This document shows positions 6,555 to 27,468 of a DNA stretch of 64,000 nucleotides, one piece after another. Source of the DNA: Acidimicrobiia bacterium. Its GTDB lineage: Bacteria > Actinomycetota > Acidimicrobiia > Spongiisociales > ZC4RG35. The position numbers were made by a program, and so were the translations under genes. The stretch spans positions 3,133 through 67,132 of the forward strand of contig JBHHWH010000001.1 in NCBI GenBank assembly GCA_046756405.1. Direction: 5' to 3'. The notes beneath the pieces were generated by a model that worked only from the letters and a program-made list of their open reading frames with translations, was not told where the DNA came from and ran no database searches. Each line of letters opens with the position of its first letter. Position 1 is the first letter of the stretch.

Positions 6555-7240
6555 GCGAAGTTCGCAGCCAGTTCCATGCTGCCATGGAGGAGCTGGAGAC
6601 CAGGCTCGTAGAGATGGCAGAACTTGCCACCCACCAGATCAAGGAGGCCGTGGCCTCCCTGATATCCGGAGACGTGGACCGCGCCGAAGCGGTGGTGGCC
6701 TCCGACGATGAGATAGACGAGATCTACCTCGAAGTAGAGAACCGCTGGCATGAGGTCATGGCCCGCCAAACGCCGGTGGCGTCGGATCTCCGTCGGATGA
6801 CCCTGATCCTCTCCGCCAACCACAGTCTGGAACGCATTGGCGACCAGTCGGTCAACATCGCCCAGGTGGTCAAGGCCACCGCCGGGCTCCCCCGCCGAGA
6901 GACCATCCTGTTACACATCCGGGAGATGGCAGCCATGGTGACCGACATGCTGGCTGTGGCGATGGAGGCTCTGGCCAGACGGGAGCTGTCCCTGGCCCTT
7001 CGCCTCCCTGAGATGGACGACCCGGTGGACTTGCTCAACCGCAACATGTATCGGGAAGTAGCCGACTGTGGTGAAGATCACGATCTACTGGAGTGGGCCC
7101 TGCGGATGCTGCTCGTAGCCCGGGCCCTGGAACGTGTCGGCGACAGGGCTGTGGACATTGGCGAACAGGTAGCGTTCCTGCTGACCGGCGTCTTCCGGGA
7201 GTTCTCCAACGACAGTTCCATCAATCTCGATGCCGGCTGA
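6551..7240 (+). CDS. phoU: Phosphate signalling complex protein PhoU.
   Basis: Two PhoU repeats (E..R.GD motifs: [10 protein letters not shown] and [10 protein letters not shown]). ATG overlaps the pstB stop. Confidence 0.9.
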
Positions 7241-25613: not shown

Positions 25614-25704
25614 GGACTCTCCTGGTACCGGTGAGGTGCTGGACCGACCCTACCCGGGCCCGTCCCTTGACGGGACCGATGATCTCAGGGATACTCCCCG
25701 CTTC

Positions 25705-25743
25705 ATGAAGTTCCACGGTCCAGCCCTCATCATCATTCCGTAG
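25705..25743 (+). CDS. Candidate Ile-rich leader peptide MKFHGPALIIIP (12 aa) for attenuation control of cimA.
   Basis: ATG...TAG mini-ORF ending in three consecutive Ile codons (ATC ATC ATT). It runs directly into overlapping alternative hairpins and a terminator-like stem-loop about 100 nt upstream of the cimA start. Confidence 0.45.
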   Translation: MKFHGPALIIIP

Positions 25744-25778
25744 GCGCATACGTCGTCCTACGGCGTGTGCGCCGCCCC

Positions 25779-25810
25779 AGCCCTTCGGAAGACCCGGAGG
25801 GCTTTCTGTT
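25779..25810 (+). terminator. Putative attenuator terminator upstream of cimA.
   Basis: 10-bp stem AGCCCTTCGG / CCGGAGGGCT (one mismatch) with a 5-nt loop, followed by TTCTGTT. It is preceded by the overlapping alternative stems CCGTAGG...CCTACGG and GGCGCATACG...CGTGTGCGCC (25738-25772). Confidence 0.45.
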
Positions 25811-25839
25811 ACCCCTCCGACCTCCCCAGGAACCACACG

Positions 25840-27468
25840 ATGTATGACAAACGCACCATCGAGATCTACGACACCACCCTCCGCGACGGCACCCAACAGG
25901 AGGGTATTTCGCTGACGGTTGGCGACAAGCTGGCCGTGGCCCGCCTCCTCGACGAACTCGGCGTCGCCTACATCGAAGGCGGCTGGCCCGGTGCCAACCC
26001 TAAAGACGACGAGTTTTTCGCCCGTGCCCGCCGCGAGCTCGGGCTCGAGAACGCAACCCTGGTGGCCTTCGGCTCCACCCGCCGACCCCGAAGTCACGCT
26101 GATGACGACCCCCAGCTTGCCGCCCTTCTCGCCGCTGATACCGAGGTGATCTGCCTGGTCGGCAAGGCCTGGGACTACCACGTCGAACACGCTCTACGGG
26201 CCAGCCGGGATGAGGCGCTGGCCATGGTGGAGGACTCTGTGGCCTATCTACGCGGTCAGGGAAAGCGGGTGTTCTTCGACGCCGAGCACTTCTTCGACGG
26301 GTACCGCTCCGACTCCGACTTCGCACTAGCCGTCCTCCGAGCCGCGCGCGATGCCGGAGCCGAGAGGATCATCCTCTGCGACACCAACGGTGGCTTCCTC
26401 TCCCACGAGGTGCAGCGCATCGTAGGCGAAGTGGGCGAGGCCCTGGGTGATGCCACCCTGGGATGCCATTTCCACAACGACACCGGCATGGCGGTAGCCA
26501 ACTCCATCACCGCGGTCCTCGAAGGAGTCCACCAAGTCCAGGGATGCATCAACGGCTACGGGGAACGCACCGGCAACGCCGACCTGTGCTCACTGATCCC
26601 CAACTTGGCGGTGAAGATGGGCCTTGAGGCCCTTCCCGAAGATCGCCTGGCCAAGCTGACCATGATCTCCCACCACGTGGCCGAGATCGTCAACCAGACC
26701 CTCGACCCTCACCTTCCCTATGTCGGCGCCTCGGCCTTCACCCACAAGGCGGGGCTGCACACCTCAGCGCTGGCGAGGCGGCGTGATGCCTACGAGCACC
26801 TCGACCCGGCAGTGGTCGGTAACGGCACCAGGGTGGTGGTCTCCGAGCTTGCGGGACGGTCGACGGTGCTGGCCAAGGCCGAAGCCCAGGGTCTCGAGCT
26901 CAGCCCCGGAACAGCACAGCAGCTCGTCGACAGGATCAAAGAGCTGGAACACGAGGGATACCAGTTCGAAGCCGCCGACGGATCCTTCGAGCTTCTCCTC
27001 CGCGAAGCCCAGGGATGGAGCCAGGACTTCTTCCAACTGGAGTCCTACCGGGTTTTCGTGGAGCATCGCAACGGCGAGGTGGTGGCCGAGGCCACCATCA
27101 AAGTCCGTGTCAATGGTGAAAGGGTTGTCGCCACCCGGGAGGGAGACGGGCCGGTGAGCGCCCTCGACCGGGCCCTTCGGGCAGCCCTGGGCGACGCCTA
27201 CCCTGAACTTGAGGGCATCCGGCTGATCGACTACCGAGTCCGGGACCTCGACTCCTCCGACGGCACCAGCGCCCGGGTACGGGTCCTCTGCCAGCACTCC
27301 GACGGCCTCCGAACCTGGGGCACCGTCGGAGTCCATGAGAACATCATCGACGCCTCCTGGGAAGCCCTCGTCGACGGAGTCGTCCTCGGTCTGCTCTATG
27401 GGAGGAACGGCCAGTCTGTTGGCCAGCGCTCAGGCAACCAGAGCCGGCCAGGACGGAAGATCTCATAA
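25840..27468 (+). CDS. cimA: (R)-citramalate synthase (CimA; LeuA/HCS family).
   Basis: IEIYDTTLRDGTQQEGISL...IEGGWPGANPKDDEFF closely matches the N-terminus of characterised CimA-type enzymes. TIM-barrel HxH metal site (CHFHNDTGMA) and a C-terminal LeuA-dimer regulatory domain. AGGAA SD 8 nt upstream of the ATG. Confidence 0.85.
   Translation: MYDKRTIEIYDTTLRDGTQQEGISLTVGDKLAVARLLDELGVAYIEGGWPGANPKDDEFFARARRELGLENATLVAFGSTRRPRSHADDDPQLAALLAADTEVICLVGKAWDYHVEHALRASRDEALAMVEDSVAYLRGQGKRVFFDAEHFFDGYRSDSDFALAVLRAARDAGAERIILCDTNGGFLSHEVQRIVGEVGEALGDATLGCHFHNDTGMAVANSITAVLEGVHQVQGCINGYGERTGNADLCSLIPNLAVKMGLEALPEDRLAKLTMISHHVAEIVNQTLDPHLPYVGASAFTHKAGLHTSALARRRDAYEHLDPAVVGNGTRVVVSELAGRSTVLAKAEAQGLELSPGTAQQLVDRIKELEHEGYQFEAADGSFELLLREAQGWSQDFFQLESYRVFVEHRNGEVVAEATIKVRVNGERVVATREGDGPVSALDRALRAALGDAYPELEGIRLIDYRVRDLDSSDGTSARVRVLCQHSDGLRTWGTVGVHENIIDASWEALVDGVVLGLLYGRNGQSVGQRSGNQSRPGRKIS

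What the first reader, a model, noticed from the sequence alone, without database searches (positions are those of the whole stretch)
25705..25842. Isoleucine-codon leader peptide and terminator hairpin upstream of citramalate synthase cimA (candidate Ile-responsive transcription attenuator)
A 12-codon mini-ORF, MKFHGPALIIIP, ends with three consecutive Ile codons (ATC ATC ATT, 25729-25737) and stops at TAG 25741-43. It runs straight into a set of mutually exclusive stems: CCGTAGG/CCTACGG at 25738-25763, GGCGCATACG/CGTGTGCGCC at 25743-25772, and then a 10-bp stem-loop followed by TTCTGTT at 25779-25810. The last hairpin sits only about 30 nt before the cimA ATG at 25840. CimA catalyses the first step of the threonine-independent (citramalate) route to isoleucine. 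Ile-codon-based ribosome-stalling attenuation is therefore the logically expected control. Leader-peptide attenuation is known for ilv, leu and trp operons. A cimA-specific Ile attenuator in an actinobacterium is, to my knowledge, not a standard annotation.
Basis: partly seen in the sequence, partly recalled or inferred. Interest (0 to 1): 0.8.

Follow-up and report, generated by a model that had tools for sequence, protein, structure and literature searches.

The report
Isoleucine-sensing leader peptide before cimA
A 12-codon mini-gene ending in three isoleucine codons, followed by two hairpins of which the second looks like a terminator, sits in front of the citramalate synthase gene and is conserved in over 60 Acidimicrobiia species, so it is very likely a real isoleucine-sensing switch, but it lacks the competing RNA stem that textbook switches of this kind use.

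Summary
Window 25705-25743 encodes MKFHGPALIIIP. A 14-bp hairpin (H1, 25743-25773) follows, then a 10-bp terminator-like hairpin with a U-rich tail (H2, 25779-25810), then cimA (TIGR00977, 677 bits).

A covariance model finds the same scaffold in 63 instances from Acidimicrobiia-type MAGs:
- a promoter;
- a start codon 8-10 nt after the -10 box, so apparently leaderless;
- a run of regulatory codons, one further codon, then the stop;
- H1 abutting the stop;
- a 0-7 nt gap, then H2 with its U-tract.

Both helices covary (18 of 20 pairs; 0 of 500 shuffles). The peptide is conserved only in its codon run, and that run tracks the genes downstream. It is Ile alone before cimA, Ile plus Val before leuB-ilvE-cimA, and Val-Leu-Leu-Ile before ilvB. 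This argues strongly for ribosome-mediated attenuation.

They do not compete with the terminator. No antiterminator was found by three tests that do recover the E. coli trp antiterminator. A ribosome stalled at the Ile codons leaves H1 folded. A ribosome at the stop codon melts it.

I favour a positional or steric switch acting through H1, but this is inference. Verdict: new variant of a known kind.

The parts
25667..25672 (+). -35-like promoter hexamer TTGACG
   Evidence: Found by the promoter scan. TTGAC[GA] is conserved at the same distance in the related loci. The combined pattern is expected 0.00 times in shuffles.
25690..25695 (+). -10-like hexamer GATACT, 17 nt after the -35 and 9 nt before the leader ATG. 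This implies a leaderless or near-leaderless transcript.
   Evidence: [CG]A[TCG]ACT lies 8-10 nt upstream of the start codon in nearly all loci, and no Shine-Dalgarno sequence lies between. The transcription start site itself is not mapped.
25705..25743 (+). Leader mini-ORF MKFHGPALIIIP plus TAG stop
   Evidence: Mini-ORFs of 9-16 codons ending in an Ile or Ile/Val run, one codon, then a stop were found in the loci next to cimA and, with the model, in 63 instances.
25729..25737 (+). Regulatory Ile codons ATC ATC ATT
   Evidence: Only Ile-Ile-Ile, one codon, stop in the window. ATT makes up 29% of leader Ile codons against 7% in cimA coding sequences, and ATA is never used. The run composition follows operon content.
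25743..25773 (+). Hairpin H1, 14 bp (25743-25756 with 25760-25773), starting at the last base of the stop codon
   Evidence: -24.3 kcal/mol. All 10 modelled pairs show compensatory changes across 62 distinct sequences. Its start lies -3 to +3 nt from the end of the stop codon in all 63 instances. It is melted by a ribosome placed at the stop codon but not by one at the first Ile codon.
25779..25810 (+). Hairpin H2 (10 bp, 25779-25788 with 25794-25803) plus U-rich tail TTCTGTT. Predicted intrinsic terminator.
   Evidence: Terminator scan. -18.0 kcal/mol. 8 of 10 pairs have compensatory changes and 96% of cells are paired. Median of 6 U in the 8-nt tail across the family.
25828..25832 (+). Probable Shine-Dalgarno sequence AGGAA of cimA
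   Evidence: Read from the sequence, 8 nt before the ATG. GGAG/GAGGA occupies the same place in related loci.
25840..27468 (+). cimA, (R)-citramalate synthase, 542 aa
   Evidence: TIGR00977 equivalog at 677 bits (cutoff 450), with all LeuA models below their cutoffs. 100% identical to a protein annotated as citramalate synthase from an Acidimicrobiia MAG.

Best explanation
This is a ribosome-mediated transcription attenuator that reports the supply of charged tRNA-Ile and controls cimA.

Proposed sequence of events:
1. Transcription starts at or within about 3 nt of the leader ATG. This is inferred from the promoter spacing.
2. A ribosome translates the 12-codon leader while RNA polymerase transcribes H1 and then H2.
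3. With enough Ile-tRNA, the ribosome runs to the TAG. There it unwinds most of H1 and is then released. H2 folds about 30 nt of unfolded RNA away from that ribosome, or after it has left. Transcription ends at the U-tract before cimA.
4. When Ile-tRNA is scarce, the ribosome parks on ATC ATC ATT, 6-12 nt upstream of H1. Polymerase then reads through into cimA. CimA makes 2-oxobutyrate without threonine and so restores isoleucine.

What is shown: the parts, their strict geometry, their covariation, and the match between codon run and operon content.

What is inferred: how the parked ribosome defeats H2. No stem competes with H2. My favoured sub-model, at about 0.3 on its own, is a positional (steric) switch. 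With the ribosome parked and H1 folded at its entry site, the base of H2 lies only about 10 nucleotide-equivalents from the ribosome. H2 then cannot close inside the polymerase exit channel unless the pre-formed, more stable H1 first unfolds.
For: Gene identity: TIGR00977 at 677 bits.

Conservation of the scaffold: 63 instances, with E-values from 1e-17 to 2e-5.

Covariation of H1 and H2:
- 92.2% of cells are paired, against 77.6% in shuffles and 38-60% in slid controls.
- 18 of 20 pairs show changes on both sides.
- 0 of 500 shuffles reach the observed values.

Peptide: conserved only in its codon run, the single following codon, and the stop. All three stop codons are used.

Codon run against regulated genes:
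- cimA alone: 73% Ile, essentially no Val.
- leuB-ilvE-cimA: 53% Ile plus 27% Val.
- ilvB: Val-Leu-Leu-Ile.

Codon choice: the rarer ATT is enriched four-fold in leaders, and ATA is absent.

Thr makes up 27% of the leader residues before the run. The threonine route is the other source of 2-oxobutyrate.

Promoter: conserved, with the -10 box 8-10 nt before the start codon.

Geometry across the 63 instances:
- Offset from stop codon to H1: median -1 nt.
- Gap between H1 and H2: median 4 nt (range 0-7).
- H1 -19.7 against H2 -16.5 kcal/mol.

A ribosome at the stop codon abolishes H1, and one at the first Ile codon does not.

Experimental precedent: a ribosome close to an intrinsic terminator represses it. 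Efficiency reaches its maximum only beyond about 30 nt, in a sequence-dependent way (PMC4824070).

Leaderless leader-peptide attenuators with hairpins and a U-stretch are known in other Actinobacteria (PMC8079986; PMC11857589).
Against: - No experimental data of any kind exist for this organism: no start-site mapping, no termination data, no Ile response.
- The defining antiterminator of classical attenuators is absent. In transcripts cut before the 3' arm of H2, the probability that the 5' arm of H2 is paired does not rise when a ribosome is placed on the Ile codons. Values are 0.33 with no ribosome, 0.18-0.31 at the Ile codons, and 0.39 at the stop. In the E. coli trpL control it rises from 0.17 to 0.62.
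- Segment-pair duplex energies are no better than shuffles.
- No third conserved helix exists.
- By nearest-neighbour thermodynamics H2 forms in every ribosome state. The model therefore rests on steric or kinetic effects that these tools cannot compute.
- Adjacent hairpins are common at ordinary terminators, so a folded H1 alone need not hinder H2.
- The window's own U-tract is imperfect (TTCTGTT).
Confidence: 0.7

Rival explanations
1. This is a classical four-segment attenuator whose antiterminator I failed to see. A weak, kinetic, pseudoknotted or species-variable pairing between the 3' arm of H1 (or the spacer) and the 5' arm of H2 forms when the stalled ribosome opens the base of H1.
For: All other parts of a classical attenuator are present. 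A ribosome at the last Ile codon can open the lowest 1-5 bp of H1. In Corynebacterium ilvB the on and off states share many paired bases and are hard to separate by comparative analysis (PMC11857589).
Against: - The duplex of the H1 3' arm plus spacer with the H2 5' arm plus loop averages only -5.0 kcal/mol, z = +0.6, and 0 of 29 loci are better than shuffles.
- Pairing of the H2 5' arm does not rise in the stalled state, while the trp control does.
- No additional covarying helix of 4 bp or more appears in 63 sequences.
- The Ile codons lie upstream of H1 rather than inside its 5' arm, so most of H1 survives a stall.
Confidence: 0.12
2. H1 by itself is the antiterminator. Whenever it is folded, directly upstream of H2, termination fails. 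Only a ribosome that reaches the stop codon and unzips H1 at the moment polymerase transcribes H2 allows termination. Untranslated transcripts would therefore read through.
For: A ribosome at the stop codon removes H1, and a ribosome at the first Ile codon leaves it intact. H1 abuts the stop codon in all 63 instances, and the single codon between run and stop keeps stalled ribosomes off H1. H1 is short enough (median 11 bp) to be largely unwound by a terminating ribosome. H1 could also act as a pause hairpin that synchronises the two machines.
Against: - There is no shared nucleotide between H1 and H2, and both fold together in every calculation.
- Hairpin clusters are common at functional terminators (title and abstract of PMC8355165).
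- The model needs very precise timing of ribosome dwell at the stop codon.
- The default state without translation would be 'on', unlike known attenuators.
Confidence: 0.1
3. Starved ribosomes shift frame or bypass the stop at the hungry AUC AUC AUU run. They then translate on through H1 and H2 and physically prevent the terminator from folding, as in pyrBI-type coupling.
For: All three reading frames stay open past H2 in most loci (+1: 24, -1: 27, frame 0 after the stop: 25, each of 29). In the window the leader is in frame with cimA, separated by the single TAG.
Against: Open frames are expected in DNA this GC-rich, and no one frame is favoured. The strictly conserved stop one codon after the run and the hairpin abutting it have no role in this model. 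There is no conserved slippery heptamer beyond the Ile codons themselves.
Confidence: 0.04
4. The element acts after or apart from termination. The parked ribosome protects the 5' end of a leaderless mRNA from 5'-end-dependent RNases, or H1 is bound by a protein, or the terminated short RNA acts in trans. H2 would be a fixed partial terminator.
For: The leader sits at the extreme 5' end, so a stalled ribosome would cover about nt 10-45. Attenuator-derived short RNAs with trans functions exist in Sinorhizobium (PMC6614838, listed).
Against: The strict spacing of stop, H1 and H2 is not needed for 5' protection. The H1 sequence differs between clades while its pairing is kept, which argues against a sequence-specific protein site. 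The tracking of operon content by the codon run still requires ribosome sensing.
Confidence: 0.04

Closest known systems
Enterobacterial leader-peptide attenuators (trpL, thrL, ilvL/ivbL, leuL, hisL, pheL)
   Same: A short ORF with tandem codons for the end-product amino acid, placed between promoter and biosynthetic gene and followed by an intrinsic terminator. The thr and ilv leaders also mix Thr/Ile or Ile/Val/Leu codons (own knowledge). Here the run changes with operon content and Thr is enriched in the leader peptides.
   Different: Those leaders have a Shine-Dalgarno-led ORF and an antiterminator (2:3) that shares bases with the terminator. Their regulatory codons lie inside segment 1. 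Here the ORF appears leaderless, the run lies 6-12 nt upstream of the first hairpin, the stop codon abuts that hairpin, and no antiterminator is detectable. The same test finds the trp one.
Corynebacterium ilvBNC attenuator (ilvB-II motif; Morbach 2000; Narunsky 2023, PMC10272879; Ryabchenko 2025, PMC11857589)
   Same: An actinobacterial leader peptide rich in branched-chain codons, with the transcript starting about 1 nt from the start codon, followed by hairpins and a U-tract terminator. The Acidimicrobiia scaffold also occurs before ilvB (L046).
   Different: In Corynebacterium the uORF spans the first hairpin, and an antiterminator overlaps the terminator (three-hairpin model). Here the ORF ends before H1, and H1 and H2 do not overlap. 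There is no Rfam match. The cimA and leuB-ilvE-cimA targets are not described there.
Leaderless leader peptides of Streptomyces (leuL, trpL, ilvL, thrL of S. lividans TK24, PMC8079986; Seliverstov 2005, PMC1262725)
   Same: Leaders of 12-18 codons, transcribed leaderless, with a run of three cognate codons (for example MRAVRLLLSEPR). They are followed by one or two hairpins and a uridine stretch. Seliverstov et al. already noted that components of attenuators are often missing in Actinobacteria.
   Different: None is upstream of a citramalate synthase, and neither paper mentions cimA or citramalate. In those leaders the run is followed by several codons. Here it is followed by exactly one codon and then the stop at the foot of H1, in 63 instances.
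Ribosome-proximity repression of intrinsic terminators (pyrBI attenuator; Li et al. 2016, PMC4824070)
   Same: Termination fails when a ribosome is physically close to the terminator hairpin, and efficiency recovers as the stop codon is moved about 30 nt away. In the window the stop codon lies 35 nt before H2 if H1 is unfolded. With H1 folded, the effective spacing from a stalled ribosome is only about 10 nt.
   Different: In those cases the ribosome acts at or near the stop codon through linear distance. Here the proposal needs a folded hairpin to shorten the distance, and this has not been demonstrated anywhere.

Membership tests
Ribosome-mediated (leader-peptide) transcription attenuators | Short translatable ORF between the promoter and the first structural gene | tested here: met
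   ATG 25705 to TAG 25743, 9 nt after a -10-like box. An equivalent ORF is present in the related loci.
Ribosome-mediated (leader-peptide) transcription attenuators | Tandem codons for the amino acid made by the regulated pathway | tested here: met
   ATC ATC ATT before cimA. The run is Ile-only before cimA, Ile plus Val before leuB-ilvE-cimA, and Val-Leu-Leu-Ile before ilvB. ATT is enriched.
Ribosome-mediated (leader-peptide) transcription attenuators | Intrinsic terminator between the leader ORF and the structural gene | tested here: met
   H2 at 25779-25803 plus its U-rich tail. It covaries and its U-rich tail is conserved. Actual termination was not measured.
Ribosome-mediated (leader-peptide) transcription attenuators | Antiterminator structure sharing bases with the terminator, favoured when the ribosome stalls | tested here: not met
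   Duplex tests give z of about 0. Truncated-transcript folding with ribosome masks shows no rise in pairing of the H2 5' arm, whereas the E. coli trpL control goes 0.17 to 0.62. No third conserved helix.
Ribosome-mediated (leader-peptide) transcription attenuators | Amino-acid-dependent read-through in vivo or in coupled in vitro systems | not testable with these tools
   Uncultured MAG.
Actinobacterial leaderless leader-peptide attenuators | Transcript starts at or within a few nt of the leader start codon, with no Shine-Dalgarno sequence | tested here: inconclusive
   Conserved TTGACG, 17-18 nt, [CG]ANACT, then 8-10 nt to ATG/GTG, with no Shine-Dalgarno sequence. No start-site mapping.
Actinobacterial leaderless leader-peptide attenuators | Hairpin(s) followed by a uridine stretch after the leader | tested here: met
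   H1 plus H2 with its U-rich tail.
Any curated RNA family in Rfam 15 (including T-box and amino-acid leaders) | Match to a family covariance model | tested here: not met
   Only chance-level hits: mir-601 and sR1 for the window (E 0.34 and 4.1), and nse_sRNA and SdsR for the ilvB copy in L046 (E of about 1).
Citramalate synthase CimA (TIGR00977), the regulated gene | Score above the curated equivalog cutoff, and below the cutoffs of the LeuA and homocitrate synthase models | tested here: met
   677.4 bits against a cutoff of 450. The best LeuA model scores 275 against 517. Enzyme activity was not tested.

The most novel reading that the evidence does not exclude
This would be a leader-peptide attenuator that works without any antiterminator pairing. 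A hairpin abutting the stop codon would act as a ribosome-position-dependent distance switch. Folded behind a ribosome parked on hungry Ile codons, it would bring ribosome and polymerase so close that the terminator hairpin 0-7 nt downstream cannot close. Unwound by a ribosome that reaches the stop codon, it would restore a spacer of about 30 nt, and termination would proceed. The scaffold would be a modular, lineage-wide device in Acidimicrobiia, re-targeted to different operons simply by changing the codon run.
Probability: 0.28. Interest if true: 0.8.

Novelty: new variant of a known kind. Interest (0 to 1): 0.6.

Why it matters
1. It gives independent, sequence-based support that the TIGR00977 homologue in Acidimicrobiia really serves isoleucine synthesis by the threonine-independent citramalate route. 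These organisms are abundant and mostly uncultured in soil, marine and wastewater settings. The evidence is that its private leader carries Ile codons only, whereas the same scaffold before ilvB or leuB-ilvE-cimA carries Val and Leu codons as well.

2. I found no description of a leader-peptide attenuator for cimA in the searchable literature or in Rfam.

3. In more than 60 species the scaffold lacks the overlapping antiterminator that defines textbook attenuation, yet keeps a very strict geometry. It is therefore a clean natural system for asking how a stalled ribosome can suppress an intrinsic terminator by position alone. That question is linked to current work on transcription-translation coupling.

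4. It is also a compact (about 110 nt) candidate part for amino-acid-responsive control in high-GC hosts.

Tried and rejected
- Rfam search of the window region and of the ilvB copy: only chance hits.
- Equilibrium folding with ribosome masks: the terminator persists in every state. A control showed this test would also miss the E. coli trp antiterminator, so I did not rely on it. I replaced it with folding of transcripts cut before the 3' arm of H2. That test recovers trp 2:3 but finds nothing here.
- Pairwise duplex tests against shuffles: no signal. The pairs tested were:
  - leader coding region against either arm of H2;
  - leader coding region against the 3' arm of H1;
  - the 5' arm of H1 against the 3' arm of H2;
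  - the 3' arm of H1 plus spacer against the 5' arm plus loop of H2, and against the 3' arm of H2;
  - Ile codons, following codon and stop against the U-tail.
- All-against-all column scan for further conserved helices in the 63-sequence alignment: only H1 and H2.
It is not a switch element.
- The window-specific repeat AGCCCTC (25722-25728), which can pair with the 3' arm of the terminator and lowers terminator probability to 0.64 in the unmasked fold: not conserved (z of about 0).
- H1 as a DNA operator palindrome: rejected. Its sequence differs between clades, loop length varies, and pairing is kept by compensatory changes.
- Frameshift or read-through idea: open frames are uninformative at this GC content.
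- RNAalifold on a plain MAFFT alignment missed H1 because its length varies. This was solved by building a covariance model and realigning.
- Literature searches for cimA or citramalate synthase together with leader peptide, attenuator or T-box found nothing relevant.
Full report
**1. What is in the sequence**

ATG 25705 opens a 12-codon ORF, MKFHGPALIIIP. Its Ile codons ATC ATC ATT lie at 25729-25737 and its TAG at 25741-25743.

The minimum-energy fold of 25690-25845 contains two strong hairpins. Its z-score is -3.96, and 0 of 200 shuffles fold as well.
- H1 is 25743-25756 paired with 25760-25773: 14 bp, -24.3 kcal/mol.
- H2 is 25779-25788 paired with 25794-25803: 10 bp, -18.0 kcal/mol. It is followed by TTCTGTT.

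A sigma-70-like promoter precedes the ATG: TTGACG at 25667, a 17-nt spacer, then GATACT at 25690-25695. It ends 9 nt before the ATG, and no Shine-Dalgarno sequence lies between.

The downstream ORF (25840-27468) scores 677 bits on the citramalate synthase equivalog TIGR00977 (cutoff 450). It scores far below the cutoff on every LeuA model. It is identical to a protein from an Acidimicrobiia MAG.

In 64 kb, on both strands, Ile-Ile-Ile followed by one codon and a stop occurs once, at this site.

**2. Conservation**

I fetched 80 loci encoding CimA relatives (55-80% identity) from different species. Nearly all are Acidimicrobiia-type MAGs.

In the loci where cimA stands alone, an ATG mini-ORF of 9-16 codons lies 60-100 nt upstream. 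It ends in an Ile run, one further codon, then a stop. Examples are MKNANTIIIL, MTTTDRLSGIIIT, MAHLATTIIIT, MNGPATSIIIII, MFDTTPTIIIN and MRGNQPASRIIIP. The rest of the peptide is not conserved.

The same promoter (TTGACG, 17-18 nt, [CG]ATACT) sits 8-10 nt before the start codon.

I built a covariance model from 29 of these regions. It finds 63 instances at E below 1e-4.

On the model-guided alignment, 92.2% of cells pair. The figure is 77.6% in column shuffles and 38-60% when partners are slid by 1-3 columns. 18 of 20 pairs show changes on both sides, and 0 of 500 shuffles reach the observed values. That alignment is fitted to the structure. Even so, the H1 sequence is plainly different in different clades (GCGCACACG, GCGCATACC, GGGGCCCGCGCC, GGAGCCGGC), and pairing is kept.

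**3. The element is a modular scaffold, not a cimA-only device**

In 29 more distant loci the model hit lies about 2 kb upstream of cimA. It sits in front of leuB (NF002898, 490 bits) and ilvE (TIGR01122, 426 bits), which form a leuB-ilvE-cimA operon.

There the run mixes Ile and Val. Examples of the last six codons are VIIIIV, RVIVIM, TVVIIP, PAIVIP and ALVVIL.

One locus (L046) has a second copy before ilvB, with the leader MTNTPLTTVLLIT.

Counting the four codons before the last codon:

| Regulated genes | Ile | Val | Leu |
|---|---|---|---|
| cimA alone | 73% | essentially none | 3% |
| leuB-ilvE-cimA | 53% | 27% | 2% |
| ilvB (one copy) | 25% | 25% | 50% |

One RNA scaffold whose codon run changes with the pathway downstream is the strongest available argument that the codons are read by a ribosome as a sensor.

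Further support:
- ATT is 29% of leader Ile codons against 7% in cimA coding sequences, and ATA never occurs.
- All three stop codons occur at the same position.
- Thr is 27% of the residues before the run in cimA-type leaders, against about 5% in CimA itself. This is sensible, because threonine is the alternative source of 2-oxobutyrate. The window's own leader has no Thr.

**4. Geometry**

Across the 63 instances:

| Feature | Median | Range |
|---|---|---|
| H1 start relative to end of stop codon | -1 nt | -3 to +3 |
| H1 length | 11 bp | 6-14 |
| H1 free energy | -19.7 kcal/mol | |
| Gap between H1 and H2 | 4 nt | 0-7 |
| H2 length | 10 bp | |
| H2 free energy | -16.5 kcal/mol | |
| U in the 8-nt tail | 6 | |

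With few exceptions, exactly one codon separates the run from the stop.

**5. How it might work**

A classical attenuator needs an antiterminator that shares bases with the terminator. I looked for one in three ways.
- First, I computed duplex energies between every plausible pair of segments and compared them with shuffles. There was no signal. The 3' arm of H1 plus spacer against the 5' arm of H2 plus loop averages -5.0 kcal/mol, z = +0.6.
- Second, I folded transcripts cut before the 3' arm of H2, with a ribosome footprint imposed. The 5' arm of H2 is paired with probability 0.33 with no ribosome, 0.18 at the first Ile codon, 0.31 at the last Ile codon and 0.39 at the stop. The same procedure on E. 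coli trpL gives 0.17, 0.62 and 0.01, so it recovers the known 2:3 antiterminator. Equilibrium folding of the full leader would miss even the trp case, so I do not rely for this point.
- Third, a scan of all column pairs in the 63-sequence alignment found no conserved helix other than H1 and H2.

The defining antiterminator is therefore tested and not met.

What does change with ribosome position is H1. A ribosome whose A site is on the stop codon removes H1. One on the first Ile codon leaves it intact, and one on the last Ile codon opens only its base. So the starved state has a ribosome parked just upstream of a folded H1. The replete state has H1 unwound, or, after release, no ribosome at all.

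My favoured reading is inference only:
- With the ribosome parked and H1 folded at its entry site, the base of H2 is about 10 nucleotide-equivalents from the ribosome (one codon, the stop and the gap).
- Closing H2 in the polymerase exit channel would force ribosome and polymerase into a space that also has to hold H1.
- H2 could then fold only if the pre-formed and more stable H1 unfolds, and polymerase escapes first.
- A ribosome at the stop codon has unwound H1, which puts about 30 nt between itself and H2. It is 35 nt in the window.

This is consistent with experiments in E. coli. There a terminator is almost fully repressed when a stop codon is a few nt upstream. It regains full efficiency beyond about 30 nt, with strong sequence dependence at 17-18 nt (PMC4824070).

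Alternatives are listed as rivals: a hidden classical antiterminator, H1 acting alone, frameshifting at hungry codons (all frames are open, which is uninformative), and post-transcriptional effects.

**6. Comparison with what is known**

Leader-peptide attenuation is textbook. Leaderless leader peptides followed by hairpins and a U-stretch are documented for the following:
- leuA, leuS, trpE, trpS, ilvB, thrS and others in Streptomyces lividans (PMC8079986);
- ilvB in Corynebacterium, where a three-hairpin model with overlapping antiterminator and terminator has mutational support (PMC10272879, PMC11857589).

Seliverstov et al. 2005 surveyed Actinobacteria and noted attenuators with missing components. 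They do not mention cimA or citramalate.

No paper in the searchable library links citramalate synthase with a leader peptide, attenuator or T-box. No Rfam family matches.

I therefore file this as a new variant of a known kind. Sensor logic and parts are the same. The gene target and lineage are new, and one defining part (the overlapping antiterminator) was tested and found absent.

**7. Limits**

- Everything rests on sequence. There is no start-site, termination or Ile-response evidence.
- The MAG-derived loci are related, so counts are not independent events. The shuffle controls do not remove phylogeny, although the slid-partner control does.
- Ribosome footprints were modelled as simple masks, 12-13 nt beyond the first base of the A-site codon.
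- The steric argument uses approximate dimensions from my own knowledge of ribosome and polymerase footprints and of collided expressome structures.

Noticed in passing
L046:6427-6572 (ilvB starts at 6590): A second copy of the same scaffold sits before ilvB. It has TTGACA, a spacer, CATACT, then the leader MTNTPLTTVLLIT (Val-Leu-Leu-Ile run, one codon, TAG), then H1 and H2 with a U-tail. The downstream protein starts [37 protein letters not shown], which I read as an acetolactate synthase large subunit from its N-terminus only.
   Followed up: partly
L027-L075 (29 loci), e.g. L038:756-832: In more distant Acidimicrobiales the scaffold precedes a leuB-ilvE-cimA operon, and its run mixes Ile and Val codons. 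cimA follows directly after ilvE, whose product ends ...RGEVDRYKDWLEHV.
   Followed up: yes
L056, L059, L073, L076, L078, L079: about 60-110 nt upstream of leuB: 13 leuB-ilvE-cimA loci lack the attenuator. Six of them share a conserved box resembling TTTAGCGTTCGCATTC in a short intergenic region next to a divergently oriented gene. This may be an operator for a protein regulator that replaces the leader.
   Followed up: no
cimA-type leaders in L001-L062: Thr is 49 of 179 residues (27%) before the Ile run and is the commonest residue immediately before it. This suggests combined Thr/Ile sensing. The window's own leader has no Thr.
   Followed up: partly
window:25705-25840: The leader ORF is in the same frame as cimA, and TAG 25741 is the only stop between them. 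All three frames stay open through H2 in most related loci. This is probably just a consequence of high GC content.
   Followed up: partly
window:25722-25728: AGCCCTC inside the leader copies the start of the terminator 5' arm and can pair with the 3' arm. It lowers the predicted terminator probability to 0.64 when no ribosome is present. It is not conserved in other loci.
   Followed up: yes
63 scaffold instances: The leader stop codon is TAG in 47 of 63, against 14 of 30 for the cimA genes of the same loci. The G of TAG is usually the first paired base of H1.
   Followed up: partly
L029, L030, L032, L034, L041, L043: Six MAGs labelled Acidobacteria or Acidobacteriota carry the same scaffold and a CimA about 60% identical to the window's. 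This points to mislabelled bins, or to the element and gene extending beyond Actinomycetota.
   Followed up: no
window:13295-13399: This is the only other match in the window to the promoter-plus-ATG pattern (TTGACG, a spacer, GATACT, 11 nt, ATG). It is followed by a 22-codon ORF (MLNRDLPSRGPASLLSPSGTMR) with no codon run, and it lies inside a longer ORF in another frame. Its meaning is unknown.
   Followed up: no
window:25833-25838: CACACG directly before the cimA ATG is complementary to CGTGTG in the 3' arm of H1. ACAC-rich spacers before the start codon recur in related loci. I did not test whether this pairing matters for translation.
   Followed up: no
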